From Escherichia coli (lineage in GTDB: Bacteria > Pseudomonadota > Gammaproteobacteria > Enterobacterales > Enterobacteriaceae), in the NCBI RefSeq assembly GCF_048403405.1, contig NZ_CP183129.1: a stretch of DNA of 64,000 nucleotides; one strand, written 5' to 3'. The position numbers were made by a program, and so were the translations under genes. Positions 51,284-54,234 of the stretch are shown here, in pieces (position 1 is the first letter of the stretch; the number at the start of each line of letters is the position of its first letter). Under the pieces are notes generated by a model. It searched no databases. It was given only the letters and a program-made list of their open reading frames with translations, and had not been told where the DNA came from.

Positions 51284-51745
51284 ATGAAAAAAACACGCGA
51301 AGTGATTGCAACTCCAGAAGCGAGCAAGAATTTAAAAGCCGCATGGAATGCAAGAAAAAAAGAGCTGAAGCTGACTCAAGAGCTGGCGGCTGAGTTGTTG
51401 GGATTCGAATCTCAAGGCACCGTTAGCCAGTATCTGAACGGCAAGATACCGGTAAATACCGACGCTGCGCTAAAATTTGCGGCTCTGTTAAAGGTAAAAC
51501 CAGAGGACATTCGAGAAGACCTTAAAGACTTAATGAATTATGTAAGATCATCAGATACTTATGATGATAACTTTTCAGGCAAAGGATGGAGGCTGGTCAA
51601 TGAAGAACAGGCAGAGTTACTTAACCTCTTCGAGATTCTACCTGCGTCAGAAAAAGCCAAACTCCTTAACCAGCTACGTGGACTAAACAAGCTCTACGAG
51701 GAAGCCTTCGAGAACATGCTGGCACTAAAGAAACGTAACCAGTAG
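51284..51745 (+). CDS. Prophage repressor (DicA/RacR-like XRE-family)
   Basis: 153 aa, divergent from cro-like; HTH LTQELAAELLGFESQGTVSQYLNG; C-terminal ELLNLFEILPASEKAKLLNQL resembles DicA. Confidence 0.7.
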   Translation: MKKTREVIATPEASKNLKAAWNARKKELKLTQELAAELLGFESQGTVSQYLNGKIPVNTDAALKFAALLKVKPEDIREDLKDLMNYVRSSDTYDDNFSGKGWRLVNEEQAELLNLFEILPASEKAKLLNQLRGLNKLYEEAFENMLALKKRNQ

Positions 51746-51772: not shown

Positions 51773-51805
51773 AAAAAACCGACGTCTTAGTCGGTTTTTT
51801 TGTGC
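51773..51805. terminator. Intrinsic terminator after the repressor gene
   Basis: aaaaaaaccgacgtcttagtcggttttttt. Confidence 0.7.
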
Positions 51806-51898
51806 CATAACTTCTGCAAATCAGCTGTATAACTAATATTTTTCCCTTGAAAAAACATTTACATAGTTACCAAATCAAAAATATCATACGCCATACTG

Positions 51899-51927
51899 TT
51901 GACTTAAAATATCCGCGTTACTAATAT
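51899..51927 (+). promoter_or_regulatory. Early-left promoter (pL-position)
   Basis: -35 TTGACT, 17 bp spacer, -10 TAATAT upstream of ydfA. Confidence 0.5.
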
Positions 51928-52313: not shown

Positions 52314-52532
52314 ATGCAGAAACGAGAACCCGTCATCATCGCGCCAGACTATACCGATGATGAACTTTATGAGTGGATGCGCCAGAAAATTAATGCAGTG
52401 CAGGATCTGAAATGGGCCAATGAAGCCAGGACTAAGCAGGCTGAAAATCTGTCCGCTCTGGAGCAGGATATCACCAGGCTGGAAAAAGCAGCGGCATTAA
52501 GCATTGCCAGAATGGTTACATACCCACGTTAA
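52314..52532 (+). CDS. ydfC: YdfC-like protein (72 aa)
   Basis: MQKREPVIIAPDYTDDELYEWMRQKINAVQDLKWANEARTKQAENLSALEQDITRLEKAAALSIARMVTYPR. Confidence 0.6.
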   Translation: MQKREPVIIAPDYTDDELYEWMRQKINAVQDLKWANEARTKQAENLSALEQDITRLEKAAALSIARMVTYPR

Positions 52533-52554
52533 TAGCTAACCAACGAGGCTAATA

Positions 52555-52956
52555 ATGGAATTTAAAGATTTACCAATGCCATTCCAGGAAATGGCAGCGA
52601 ATGTGGTTCGCTCTCAACTGGCGACTCTTGACCTGAGTACTGTAGAAAAGGAAACCATCGATACTATATCCGGTAACGTGCGTCGTGCCTTTATAGGTCT
52701 GTATGAAGAGAAGCGCCTATTCGGCGGACAGAATTCGCCTGAAAACAAGAATCAAGCAAATGATGAGAAGCTGAAACACATTATCGCCTTACTTTTGGAA
52801 GACGCAAAACGTCTACAGCAACTGGAACCAAATGCAGGCACAGAGGCCCGCATTTGGATTGCCATGAAATCACTCAAATGTGAAAGCAGTGATTATTTCA
52901 AAACAACAATTAAAACTACTCAACTTTCGGGAGAGCTACTGAAGAAATTGCCATAA
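52555..52956 (+). CDS. Hypothetical protein (133 aa) in the early-left operon
   Basis: ORF track; between ydfC-like and dicF. Confidence 0.45.
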   Translation: MEFKDLPMPFQEMAANVVRSQLATLDLSTVEKETIDTISGNVRRAFIGLYEEKRLFGGQNSPENKNQANDEKLKHIIALLLEDAKRLQQLEPNAGTEARIWIAMKSLKCESSDYFKTTIKTTQLSGELLKKLP

Positions 52957-53194
52957 GAGCATGGTCTTTCTCTTGTTCTGCAAGATGAGCATTAATACCT
53001 GGTATGGTTTTTTCAAATTTATCTATCTGTTGAATAACAACTTCGCGGTATACGTTTGTTTTTGTACCACCAAGCGCAGCCGTTAATGCAGAAAGCATAT
53101 TTAGTATCATATCAGTGCGATATGAAAGAATCCTGATAGCTTCATCTTGTTCTTCAATAATAGATTGCAGGGCCTCAATTTGCTTTTTATCCAT
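52916..53194 (-). CDS. Counter-oriented hypothetical coiled-coil protein (92 aa)
   Basis: MDKKQIEALQSIIEEQDEAIRILSYRTDMILNM... with perfect AGGAGG RBS; convergent with 52555..52956. Confidence 0.5.
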   Translation of the reverse strand: MDKKQIEALQSIIEEQDEAIRILSYRTDMILNMLSALTAALGGTKTNVYREVVIQQIDKFEKTIPGINAHLAEQEKDHALMAISSVALPKVE

Positions 53195-53529
53195 TTCACC
53201 CTCCTGAGGGTTGGTAATTAAGGAGTTCTCCACTGGTCAGGTGGAGTGCGTGCGCCGGACACGGGTGAGCATCCGGCACTGACAGTTTACTGAAAGGATA
53301 TGTCCCTGAAAAGTCAGGGCATAACGCGAAAGCGCACGGCGAAATTGGTCTCTCTGTACGGTGTCGTTAAATTTAGTTCGACCGTGCGCTTCCGGTTGTG
53401 GCACTCCGCGAAATGGCGCGGCGGTAAGTATGGCTGGGGTTTCCTCCATTGCTCCAGAAAATGCACCGGGTTGTCAGGTTGACCATACGCTTAAGTGACA
53501 ACCCCGCTACAACGCCCTCTGTTATCAAT

Positions 53530-53587
53530 TTTCTGGTGACATTTGGCGGTATCAGTTTTACTCCGTGACTGCTCTGCCGCCCTTTTT
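53530..53587 (+). ncRNA. dicF: DicF small RNA (cell-division inhibitor sRNA)
   Basis: tttctggtgacatttggcggtatcagttttactccgtgactgctctgccgccc + T-run matches the remembered DicF sequence; lies upstream of dicB. Confidence 0.7.
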
Positions 53588-53765
53588 AAAGTGAATTTTG
53601 TGATGCGGTGAATGCGGCTATGCGCACGCGGAACAGTTAAAGCAGTAAGGCGGTATTTTACGGGCGTAACGAGCATCAACTAACCCGGCGTTAATTGTTA
53701 ACTGGTTAACGTCACCTGGAGGCACCAGGCACTGCATCACAAAATTCATTGTTGAGGACGCGATA

Positions 53766-53954
53766 ATGGAAACGTTATTACCAAACGTTAATACGTCTGA
53801 AGGTTGTTTTGAAATTGGTGTCACTATCAGTAACCCTGTATTTACTGAAGATGCCATTAACAAGAGAAAACACGAACGGGAGTTATTAAATAAAATATGC
53901 ATTCTTTCAATGCTGGCCCGTTTACGTCCGATACAAAAAGGATGTGCACAATGA
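53766..53954 (+). CDS. dicB: Cell division inhibitor DicB
   Basis: 62 aa METLLPNVNTSEGCFEIGVTISNPVFTEDAINKRKHERELLNKICILSMLARLRPIQKGCAQ. Confidence 0.85.
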   Translation: METLLPNVNTSEGCFEIGVTISNPVFTEDAINKRKHERELLNKICILSMLARLRPIQKGCAQ

Positions 53955-54142
53955 ATACAGCATTTGCACTTGTTCTGACAGTTTTTCTTGTTTCCGGAGA
54001 GCCAGTTGATATTGCAGTCAGTGTTCACAGGACAATGCAGGAGTGTGTGACTGCAGCAACCGAACAGAAAATTCCCGGTAACTGTTACCCGGTCGATAAA
54101 GTTATTCACCAGGATAATAACGAAATCCCGGCAGGTCTTTAA
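53950..54142 (+). CDS. ydfD: YdfD-like small protein with signal-peptide-like N-terminus
   Basis: MNTAFALVLTVFLVSGEPVDIAVSVHRTMQECVTAATEQKIPGNCYPVDKVIHQDNNEIPAGL; ATGA overlap with dicB. Confidence 0.65.
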
Positions 54143-54234
54143 AACAGTTCCGTAATAAATATCCGGTTTCATTCTTATATGCCAGCAATGGCAGGGATTT
54201 GTTCACCCTTAAATCTGTAATGAGGTAAAACAAA

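What the first reader, a model, noticed from the sequence alone, without database searches (positions are those of the whole stretch)
52555..53194. Extra convergent gene pair inserted between ydfC and dicF
Relative to the Qin ydfABC-dicF-dicB layout, this prophage has a 133 aa + strand gene and a counter-oriented 92 aa coiled-coil gene with a perfect AGGAGG RBS between ydfC and dicF. A gene transcribed against the early-left operon is reminiscent of superinfection-exclusion or anti-repressor morons.
Basis: partly seen in the sequence, partly recalled or inferred. Interest (0 to 1): 0.35.

Follow-up and report, generated by a model that had tools for sequence, protein, structure and literature searches.

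The report
Variable small-gene slot beside prophage dicF
The two extra genes are real, and the backward-facing one is one of at least 14 unrelated small genes that sit behind the same conserved promoter and folded RNA leader in prophages of E. coli and its relatives, which marks a swap-in accessory-gene site of unknown function.

Summary
Gene A is 52555-52956 (+, 133 aa). Gene B is 53194-52916 (-, 92 aa), with AGGAGG 5 nt before its ATG. They lie between ydfC and DicF, and their 3' ends overlap by 41 nt. K-12 Qin lacks exactly 52553-53208. Both genes are under purifying selection. Neither has a homologue of known function by sequence, and B has none by fold.

The new result is that B sits behind a conserved expression platform pointing against the early-left operon. 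The platform has a sigma-70-like promoter (53312-53284) and an ~85-nt leader (53280-53195) with a 5' hairpin, a second hairpin and a hairpin that pairs the Shine-Dalgarno sequence. At least 14 unrelated small ORFs (30-104 aa) start at the same ATG behind this leader in E. coli, Salmonella, Pluralibacter and Edwardsiella prophages. Promoter plus leader occur in 61% of complete E. coli genomes and are never annotated. K-12 keeps them but has no cargo.

A is an early-operon gene with a conserved 53-aa N-terminal module and an exchangeable C-terminal module.

Best reading: a moron-type, hypervariable accessory-gene slot. The architecture is well supported. A role in exclusion, defence or counter-defence is inferred only. 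An obligate toxin-antitoxin pair and an antirepressor are disfavoured.

The parts
52555..52956 (+). Gene A, 133 aa, a gene of the early-left operon (ydfA-ydfB-ydfC-A-dicF-dicB). PHROG phrog_1363, function unknown.
   Evidence: ORF and RBS. RefSeq CDS WP_000394529.1. phrog_1363, E 3e-45. 263 homologues. AlphaFold2 model: N-terminal part confident, C-terminal part poor.
52555..52713 (+). A N-terminal module (aa 1-53), a two-helix hairpin. It is the conserved left flank of the variable region.
   Evidence: Nucleotides 23-182 of the query are found in about 1433 E. coli genomes, while the rest of A varies. pLDDT is about 80 for aa 1-50. The module also occurs in phrog_6937, phrog_2151 and phrog_9419.
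52756..52956 (+). A C-terminal module (aa 68-133), exchangeable. It is a stand-alone 71-aa gene in Salmonella prophages.
   Evidence: Salmonella loci L087 and L090 carry a 71-aa ORF homologous to aa 68-133, convergent with the B homologue. dN/dS is 0.19-0.55. Other alleles carry unrelated C-modules.
52916..53194 (-). Gene B, 92 aa, a soluble acidic predicted three-helix protein. PHROG phrog_18692, function unknown. It is one 'cargo' allele of the slot.
   Evidence: ORF. RefSeq CDS WP_000358769.1. phrog_18692, E 8e-63. dN/dS 0.08-0.25. Only 21 relatives among 1.84 billion representative proteins. AlphaFold2 pLDDT 74.8. No membrane segment; pI 5.1.
52916..52956 (.). The 41-nt overlap of the 3' ends of A and B.
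   Evidence: Coordinates. The same 41-nt overlap is found in Salmonella (L087, L090) and in the P2-like locus L095. Other alleles overlap by 0-44 nt or not at all.
53200..53205 (-). Shine-Dalgarno AGGAGG of B, 5 nt before the ATG.
   Evidence: Read. It is conserved in front of all cargo alleles.
53195..53280 (-). Predicted structured 5' leader of B. HP1 is 53279-53252, HP2 is 53246-53228, and the anti-SD 53225-53220 pairs with 53206-53201.
   Evidence: Covariance model R1 matches 53192-53280 on the minus strand at 104 bits. 87% of cells are paired, against 37-51% when the partners are slid, and 0 of 500 shuffles reach the covariation score. HP1 has invariant G.U pairs that exist only on the minus strand. 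Each sequence folds into these hairpins on its own.
53284..53312 (-). Sigma-70-like promoter P_B: -35 TTTTCA (53312-53307), a 17-nt spacer, -10 TAAACT (53289-53284). The predicted start is near 53277-53281.
   Evidence: It is the best-scoring site in the 420 nt upstream of B. A -10-like hexamer lies 6-9 nt before HP1 in at least 6 unrelated upstream sequences (L087, L090, L095, L132, L168, L217). The stricter scan did not list it.
52553..53208 (.). The segment absent from E. coli K-12 Qin. It runs from the SD of B through 2 nt before the ATG of A.
   Evidence: blastn of the window against NC_000913.3. The K-12-type junction is found in 2697 of 5426 genomes.
52828..52857 (-). A 12-bp G+C-rich hairpin about 60-90 nt downstream of the B stop codon, inside gene A. 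It has no U tract. It may mark the 3' end of the B transcript or stabilise it.
   Evidence: Fold. It is conserved in L087 and L090 and coincides with the peptide PNAGTEARIW of A.
53531..53582 (+). DicF small RNA (context; right neighbour).
   Evidence: Rfam RF00039, 77 bits, E 2.7e-16.
52314..52532 (+). ydfC (context; left neighbour).
   Evidence: RefSeq annotation of the identical locus L001. 96% identical to K-12.

Best explanation
The interval holds two separate things that happen to abut.

(1) Gene B is the cargo of a conserved expression platform pointing against the early-left operon. The platform is a sigma-70-type promoter followed by an ~85-nt leader. The leader starts with an almost invariant 11-bp hairpin, continues with a second hairpin whose sequence varies in a compensatory way, and ends in a hairpin that pairs the Shine-Dalgarno sequence. 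Many unrelated small ORFs start at the same ATG behind this leader in different prophages, so the site is a hypervariable accessory-gene (moron) slot. B is one allele of it: a 10-kDa soluble three-helix protein.

(2) Gene A belongs to the early-left operon. It has a conserved N-terminal two-helix module, which serves as the left homology arm for exchange, and an exchangeable C-terminal module. Its reading frame runs 41 nt into the 3' end of B.

Inferred, not shown: B is transcribed independently of the early-left promoter, in the lysogen and/or right after infection. Its translation is throttled by the SD-pairing hairpin. It acts by binding another protein in phage-phage or phage-host conflict (exclusion, defence or counter-defence). 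Convergent transcription from P_B also opposes read-through from the early-left promoter towards the toxic dicF-dicB.
For: Both genes are real and constrained.

All cargo alleles share the sequence up to the ATG and diverge immediately after it. They include the 92-, 91-, 77-, 73-, 57-, 61-, 64-, 69- (two families), 70-, 80-, 94-, 104- and 30-aa ORFs.

The leader structure is supported. 87% of cells are paired, against 37-51% when slid, and 0 of 500 shuffles reach the score. 5 of 6 HP2 pairs change on both sides. The anti-SD pair flips between A-U (24 sequences) and U-A (15). The G.U pairs of HP1 are valid only on B's strand.

A promoter-like -10 sits at a fixed distance from HP1 in unrelated upstream sequences.

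Intrinsic terminators follow B homologues in L093, L094, L003 and L095.

The platform is in 3321 of 5426 E. coli genomes and in isolated phages. K-12 retains the promoter, HP1, HP2 and the anti-SD without an SD or cargo.

Remote B homologues always lie close to the repressor or integrase and face against the repressor or early-left genes.
Against: There are no transcription or translation data. Three public E. coli transcript-mapping (TSS / 3'-end) supplements that could be searched held nothing for this site.

The window's own -10 (TAAACT) and -35 (TTTTCA) are mediocre, and the stricter consensus scan did not list them.

The window allele has no clear terminator after B.

The conserved DNA is also part of the + strand dicF precursor, so some of the conservation could serve that RNA. 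Both strands fold, with z -5.7 on the minus strand and -1.6 on the plus strand.

The sequences used for covariation are related, and the alignment was fitted to the model.

The function of B and of every other cargo is unknown. PADLOC gives no hit.
Confidence: 0.55

Rival explanations
1. A and B form an obligate two-gene system, either toxin-antitoxin-like or sensor-effector. The C-terminal module of A and B act on each other, and the 3' overlap couples their expression through antisense RNA.
For: Each cargo type tends to come with its own A C-module. The same 41-nt overlap is kept in E. coli, Salmonella and a P2-like phage. B has a very weak RelB-like hit (E 0.014, 15.6 bits against a cut-off of 50).
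Against: The window-type A occurs with a different, non-overlapping 57-aa cargo (L004, L217). The type-3 A occurs with B deleted in at least 12 viral loci and about 25. B relatives occur with no convergent partner, followed by their own terminator (L091, L093, L094). The conserved tail of A (TTQLSGELL) is simply the antisense of B's conserved C-terminus. There is no toxin or antitoxin domain. Genes of type II systems are co-directional.
Confidence: 0.12
2. The main product is RNA. P_B makes an antisense transcript that interferes with the early-left operon (ydfABC-A), and so limits the dicF/dicB expression that depends on read-through. The ORFs behind it are secondary passengers.
For: The promoter and leader are far more conserved and widespread than any cargo: 3321 genomes against 123 for this pair. 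About half of E. coli genomes keep the platform with no cargo, so its transcript would be purely antisense to ydfC. dicB and dicF are toxic (PMC5069750).
Against: B is under clear purifying selection (dN/dS 0.08-0.25). A strong SD and ATG are conserved in front of every cargo. An SD-pairing hairpin with a compensatory flip only makes sense if translation matters. This reading is compatible with the best explanation rather than exclusive of it.
Confidence: 0.15
3. B is an antirepressor that inactivates the prophage repressor to trigger induction.
For: The window's repressor (51284-51745) has an HTH domain but no peptidase S24 domain, a type that often depends on antirepressors (own knowledge of the Gifsy and 186 systems). 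B relatives always lie next to the immunity region. B is small and helical.
Against: B relatives also sit next to cleavable S24 repressors (L093, L094). No CTGT-N8-ACAG box was seen by eye near P_B in the sequences, and there is no operator-like sequence shared with the immunity region. The same slot carries many unrelated proteins while the repressors differ. There is no homology to known antirepressors.
Confidence: 0.08
4. One or both ORFs are chance reading frames in the long untranslated region upstream of dicF.
For: K-12 describes this region as untranslated (PMC5069750). The C-terminal half of A models poorly (pLDDT 35-56).
Against: Both frames are kept open at 71-74% amino-acid identity, with an excess of synonymous changes. 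Both have good ribosome-binding sites. Both are PHROG families.
Confidence: 0.03

Closest known systems
Phage 'morons' (independent promoter-gene-terminator units present in one lambdoid phage and absent from its relatives, e.g. HK97/HK022 morons, lambda lom/bor, rexAB, sieB; own knowledge of Juhala et al. 2000)
   Same: It shows presence/absence polymorphism between otherwise collinear prophages. It has its own promoter-like site, and homologues have intrinsic terminators. It sits inside an operon without belonging to it. Its location next to the immunity region matches that of lysogen-expressed exclusion genes.
   Different: The promoter and a structured leader are themselves conserved and reused for many unrelated ORFs. 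The unit faces against the operon and overlaps the neighbouring gene's 3' end. There is no homology to any characterised moron product. Expression in the lysogen is not shown.
Anti-CRISPR (acr-aca) loci and other fixed-position variable small-gene loci of temperate phages; the P2/P4 defence hotspots (PMC9122126)
   Same: A fixed genomic position is flanked by conserved sequence. It is filled with diverse, mostly unannotated small genes that are exchanged between related phages.
   Different: There is no associated aca-type regulator gene. Each slot holds a single ORF of 30-104 aa, much smaller than the P2 hotspot systems. None of the cargos matches a known anti-defence or defence family. Regulation appears to lie in an RNA leader.
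Lambda oop RNA / cII, and 3'-overlapping type I toxin-antitoxin pairs of prophages (txpA/RatA, bsrG/SR4; own knowledge)
   Same: Convergent transcription with overlapping 3' ends inside a prophage regulatory region. The expected outcome is mutual antisense or RNase III effects.
   Different: Both partners here encode conserved soluble proteins. There is no small hydrophobic toxin. The overlap length is not conserved between alleles (0-44 nt).
E. coli K-12 Qin dicBF operon (ydfA-ydfB-ydfC-dicF-dicB-ydfD; PMC5069750)
   Same: The flanking genes are the same and DicF is nearly identical (the flanks are 92-96% identical to K-12). The spacer upstream of dicF, which contains P_B and the leader, is the same.
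   Different: K-12 lacks the 656 bp that carry the SD of B, B itself and A.

Membership tests
Moron (autonomous accessory transcription unit in a phage genome) | Present in some and absent from other closely related, collinear phage genomes | tested here: met
   The K-12-type empty junction is in 2697 genomes. The A N-module marks occupied sites in about 1433 genomes. The exact pair is in 123.
Moron (autonomous accessory transcription unit in a phage genome) | Own promoter, independent of the surrounding operon | tested here: inconclusive
   A sigma-70-like site lies at 53312-53284. A -10-like hexamer sits at the same distance from the leader in at least 6 unrelated upstream sequences. The stricter scan missed it. 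No transcription data were found.
Moron (autonomous accessory transcription unit in a phage genome) | Own transcription terminator | tested here: inconclusive
   Intrinsic terminators follow B homologues in L093, L094, L003 and L095. In the window there is only a 12-bp hairpin without a U tract (52828-52857) and a weak site inside ydfC.
Moron (autonomous accessory transcription unit in a phage genome) | Expressed from the repressed prophage | not testable with these tools
   This needs RNA or protein data from a lysogen.
Type II toxin-antitoxin system | Two co-directional, co-transcribed genes that always occur together | tested here: not met
   The genes are convergent. A occurs with another cargo or with none, and B relatives occur alone.
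Type II toxin-antitoxin system | Homology to a known toxin or antitoxin family | tested here: not met
   Pfam, NCBIfam and PADLOC give nothing above threshold. The best match is RelB-like at 15.6 bits against a cut-off of 50.
Type I toxin-antitoxin with 3'-overlapping antisense RNA | Small hydrophobic membrane toxin | tested here: not met
   The maximum Kyte-Doolittle 19-residue window is 0.52 for A and 0.93 for B. Both are hydrophilic.
Superinfection-exclusion proteins (SieB, RexAB, Sie/Imm types) | Sequence or fold similarity, or membrane localisation | tested here: not met
   There are no family hits. Foldseek on the B model gives only generic three-helix matches with E > 0.3. There is no transmembrane segment.
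LexA-controlled antirepressors (Tum, Gfo/Gfh types) | LexA box at the promoter, and homology | tested here: not met
   No CTGT-N8-ACAG box was seen by eye near P_B in the sequences. There is no homology. No sequence is shared with the immunity-region operators.
Anti-CRISPR-type variable small-gene locus | Fixed position occupied by diverse small ORFs | tested here: met
   At least 14 unrelated ORFs lie behind the same leader.
Anti-CRISPR-type variable small-gene locus | Adjacent conserved aca HTH regulator, and anti-defence activity | tested here: not met
   No HTH gene lies in the unit. Activity is not testable here.
Any Rfam RNA family (for the leader) | Match to a curated covariance model | tested here: not met
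   Only DicF is found in 53150-53620 at E <= 10.
PHROG phrog_1363 (A) and phrog_18692 (B) | Profile match over the full length | tested here: met
   E 3.4e-45 over aa 1-131 for A, and E 8e-63 over aa 1-92 for B. Both families are of unknown function.

The most novel reading that the evidence does not exclude
The promoter plus the three-hairpin leader is a previously undescribed cis-regulatory RNA 'cassette expression site' of enterobacterial temperate phages. It would keep a rotating set of small conflict proteins (defence or counter-defence) translationally silent until a signal opens the SD hairpin. That signal could be antisense pairing with the early-left/dicF precursor transcript during induction or infection, or a host RNA-binding factor that recognises the invariant 5' hairpin. 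The orphan copy in K-12 Qin would then be a relic that still makes an antisense RNA against ydfABC.
Probability: 0.3. Interest if true: 0.7.

Novelty: new variant of a known kind. Interest (0 to 1): 0.45.

Why it matters
If the platform works as proposed, a 90-nt search handle (covariance model R1) would pull out a catalogue of small, unannotated prophage proteins. These are probably involved in phage exclusion, defence or counter-defence. The handle is present in about 60% of E. coli genomes, often in several copies, including Stx-phage-carrying strains.

It would also put an unrecognised antisense promoter inside the classic dicBF operon of K-12. That could help explain how the toxic dicF/dicB genes are kept silent.

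For the finding as written, the practical message is narrower. The pair is real and already annotated as hypothetical. It is better seen as an early-operon gene plus an independent swap-in gene than as a functional pair.

Tried and rejected
Homology and fold searches:
- Pfam, NCBIfam, PADLOC and PHROGs on A, B and 12 alternative alleles gave only unknown-function PHROGs. One alternative 94-aa cargo has a sub-threshold GhoS match.
- A PDB sequence search with profiles of A and B found nothing.
- The B model searched against PDB and BFVD gave only generic three-helix bundles such as bS20, GAT and BAG, all with E > 0.3.
- The A model was too poor in its C-terminal half for a fold search.
- An HMM search of 1.84 billion proteins, plus an iterated profile search, found a narrow Enterobacterales-only B family with no names or domains.
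- Source names for six alleles are all 'hypothetical'.

Experimental evidence and literature:
- Thomason 2015 is not held. The supplements of three other papers contain nothing for about 164913x.
- Literature searches for ydfC, dicF and antisense found only descriptions of the K-12 operon.

Other attempts:
- The genome-contig scan used too degenerate a pattern and returned mostly random G+C-rich hits. Only Pluralibacter, Edwardsiella and E. albertii were useful.
- Small antisense ORFs of 49-58 aa opposite B in L093 and L094 were first taken for partner genes. They were rejected because the conserved stretch is B's intrinsic terminator read backwards.
- I looked for operator sequences shared between the immunity region and P_B and found none.
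- I tried to assign the strand of the conserved region by folding energy alone. Both strands fold, so this was not decisive.

Full report
**Observation**

The window carries a + strand ORF at 52555..52956 (133 aa, 'A') and a - strand ORF at 53194..52916 (92 aa, 'B'). On the minus strand AGGAGG lies at 53205..53200, 5 nt before the ATG of B. A has GAGG 6 nt before its ATG. The two 3' ends overlap by 41 nt.

The neighbours are a cI-like HTH gene (51284-51745), ydfA, ydfB, ydfC (52314-52532), then the pair. After it come DicF (53531-53582; Rfam 77 bits), dicB, a DUF1482 gene, an exonuclease, xis and int. RefSeq annotates both ORFs as hypothetical proteins in identical loci.

Against K-12 Qin the window has exactly 52553-53208 extra, and the flanks align at 92-96% identity.

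**Are the ORFs genes?**

The identical pair is in 123 of 5426 complete E. coli genomes. Salmonella prophages of the Rac type carry a 93-aa B homologue (71-74% identity). It converges, with the same 41-nt overlap, on a stand-alone 71-aa gene homologous to residues 68-133 of A.

Nei-Gojobori estimates give dN/dS of 0.08-0.25 for B and 0.19-0.55 for the C-terminal module of A, at dS of 0.6-1.6. Both are coding.

B is acidic and soluble, with no membrane segment. AlphaFold2 predicts three helices (pLDDT 74.8). A has a confident N-terminal two-helix hairpin (aa 1-55, pLDDT about 80) and a poorly modelled C-terminal half.

**What is known about them?**

Nothing functional.
- Pfam, NCBIfam and PADLOC give no significant hits.
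- PHROGs places A in phrog_1363 and B in phrog_18692, both of unknown function.
- PDB sequence searches and Foldseek searches against PDB and BFVD give nothing specific.
- A profile of B scored against 1.84 billion representative proteins finds only 21 relatives, and an iterated profile finds 50. All are from Enterobacterales and all are unnamed.

**The locus is polymorphic**

Partial matches in about 1433 E. coli genomes cover only the first ~160 nt of A and the region right of B. Reading five RefSeq loci and 80 viral contigs showed several forms of the same position:
- 133 aa + 92 aa (this window);
- 106/109 aa + 91 aa, where the 91-aa protein is a 28%-identical relative of B;
- 135 aa + 77 aa (O157 prophages);
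- 133 aa + 57 aa, not overlapping;
- 124 aa with the counter-oriented gene deleted;
- an IS-disrupted form.

A is thus a conserved 53-aa N-terminal module fused to exchangeable C-terminal modules, which matches its split PHROG hits.

**The expression platform**

The sequence upstream of B on B's strand is conserved far beyond E. coli. It is found in Salmonella, in a P2-like element (L095), in Pluralibacter and in Edwardsiella. It consists of three elements:
- A nearly invariant hairpin, GUGCCGGAUGC-ucaccc-GUGUCCGGCGC (window 53279-53252). Its 11 base pairs include invariant G.U pairs that would be A.C mismatches on the + strand.
- A second hairpin (53246-53228) that exists in several different, self-complementary sequence versions. 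Five of its six pairs change on both sides.
- An anti-SD (53225-53220) that pairs with the SD (53206-53201). One pair flips between U-A and A-U (15 and 24 distinct sequences).

Every version folds into these hairpins on its own, with the SD at least partly paired. On 40 distinct sequences, 87% of cells are paired, against 37-51% when the partners are slid. None of 500 shuffles reaches the covariation score. The caveats are that the sequences are related and that the alignment was fitted to the model. Rfam has no family for this leader.

Six to nine nucleotides upstream of the first hairpin there is always a -10-like hexamer. In the window it is TAAACT (53289-53284), with TTTTCA 17 nt upstream. 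Other versions include TG-n-TAAGCT, TAAAAT, TG-n-TATTAT and TAGTAT. These lie in upstream sequences that are otherwise unrelated. Conservation of position without conservation of sequence is the main argument for a promoter. The stricter consensus scan did not list the window's site, and I found no experimental start-site data.

**Variable cargo**

Scanning viral contigs for the first hairpin, then reading the first ORF after the SD, gave at least 14 unrelated small proteins of 30-104 aa. All start at the same ATG behind the same leader, and B and its 91-aa relative are among them. All are of unknown function. One 94-aa cargo has a sub-threshold GhoS-like match.

Many loci carry the K-12-type empty junction or the B-deleted form. 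The promoter plus leader (115 nt) is present in 3321 of 5426 complete E. coli genomes, in up to five copies, with nothing annotated under it. It is also present in isolated phages.

K-12 keeps the promoter, both hairpins and the anti-SD but lacks the SD, B and A. I read this as a deletion rather than as the ancestral state. That is an inference.

**Are A and B a functional pair?**

Each cargo tends to travel with its own A C-module. The 41-nt overlap recurs in three lineages. Against an obligate pair:
- The window-type A occurs with the unrelated 57-aa cargo.
- The type-3 A is common without any cargo.
- Remote B relatives stand alone next to cI or an integrase, followed by their own intrinsic terminators.
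- The conserved tail of A (TTQLSGELL) is the antisense reading of B's conserved C-terminus (ISSVALPK). Small 'partner' ORFs in L093 and L094 are B's terminator read backwards.

Co-variation is therefore best explained by physical linkage within one exchange unit. That unit is bounded on the left by the A N-module and on the right by the leader.

**Mechanism proposed**

B is an autonomous, counter-oriented accessory gene, that is, a moron-type unit. It would be transcribed from P_B independently of the early-left promoter, which lies at 51858-51927, after the terminator of the cI-like gene. Its translation would be limited by the SD-pairing hairpin.

B would act as a small binding protein. The hypervariability of the slot and its position next to the immunity region resemble lysogen-expressed exclusion or defence genes and variable counter-defence loci. 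This part is inference only.

Because P_B fires towards the early-left promoter, it should also reduce read-through into dicF-dicB and generate RNA antisense to A and ydfC. In the cargo-less K-12 form that would be its only effect.

**Rivals**

- An obligate toxin-antitoxin-like pair: disfavoured, for the reasons given above.
- An antirepressor. The repressor here lacks an S24 domain. However, B relatives also sit beside S24 repressors, and no LexA box or shared operator was found.
- A purely RNA-level function. This is compatible with the main reading, but it does not explain the purifying selection or the conserved SD and ATG.
- Spurious ORFs: rejected.

**Novelty and score**

The two proteins are already in databases as hypotheticals, and variable accessory slots in temperate phages are a known kind of thing. 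I did not find the following described in the searched literature or in Rfam:
- a conserved promoter and three-hairpin leader reused for many unrelated small ORFs;
- their orientation against the early-left operon, beside dicF;
- the orphan copy in K-12.

I rate it a new variant of a known kind and of moderate interest. The function and the expression remain untested.

Noticed in passing
window 53330-53440: Between the proposed promoter and dicF there is a further conserved region. It has a long-range helix (CCGGAAGCGCAC paired with GTGCGCTTTCG) and a small GCGCC/GGCGC-type hairpin. It is shared by E. coli, Salmonella and the P2-like locus L095. No Rfam family matches, and the strand and role are unknown. 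It could be part of the dicF precursor or a regulatory region for P_B.
   Followed up: partly
loci L226, L275, L299, L314 (cargo ORF behind the same leader): One alternative 94-aa cargo (MAKFTVRIELRD...) has a sub-threshold Pfam match to the GhoS endoribonuclease antitoxin (E 0.0012, 19.2 bits against a cut-off of 21). It is the only cargo with any functional hint.
   Followed up: no
E. coli K-12 NC_000913.3 about 1649050-1649145 (L006 4055-4145), minus strand: K-12 Qin retains the promoter-like site, both hairpins and the anti-SD, but no SD or ORF. If the promoter is active, it would make an unannotated RNA antisense to ydfC-ydfA.
   Followed up: partly
window 53580-53798 (+): There is a weak match to the Salmonella sRNA family STnc100 between dicF and dicB (31 bits against a 47-bit gathering score, E 6e-4).
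   Followed up: no
window 51776-51806 and 51858-51927: The cI-like gene ends in a clean intrinsic terminator (AAACCGAC-gtctta-GTCGGTTTTTTT). Two promoter-like sites follow, so ydfA-...-dicB is a separate transcription unit. A direct repeat, ACTAATATTT, flanks these promoters and could be an operator.
   Followed up: no
window 52828-52857: A 12-bp G+C-rich hairpin inside gene A coincides with its most conserved peptide (PNAGTEARIW). It is conserved in Salmonella. It is unclear whether the protein or an RNA structure (the 3' end of the B transcript) is the constraint.
   Followed up: partly
locus L087 3734-3782 (-): Salmonella Rac-like prophages carry a DicF-like RNA below the Rfam threshold (36 bits against 48). 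It sits in the same position relative to the leader and the B homologue.
   Followed up: no
window 53618-54172 (-): A 184-aa minus-strand ORF overlaps dicB and the DUF1482 gene. It is not annotated in RefSeq and is probably a chance frame.
   Followed up: no
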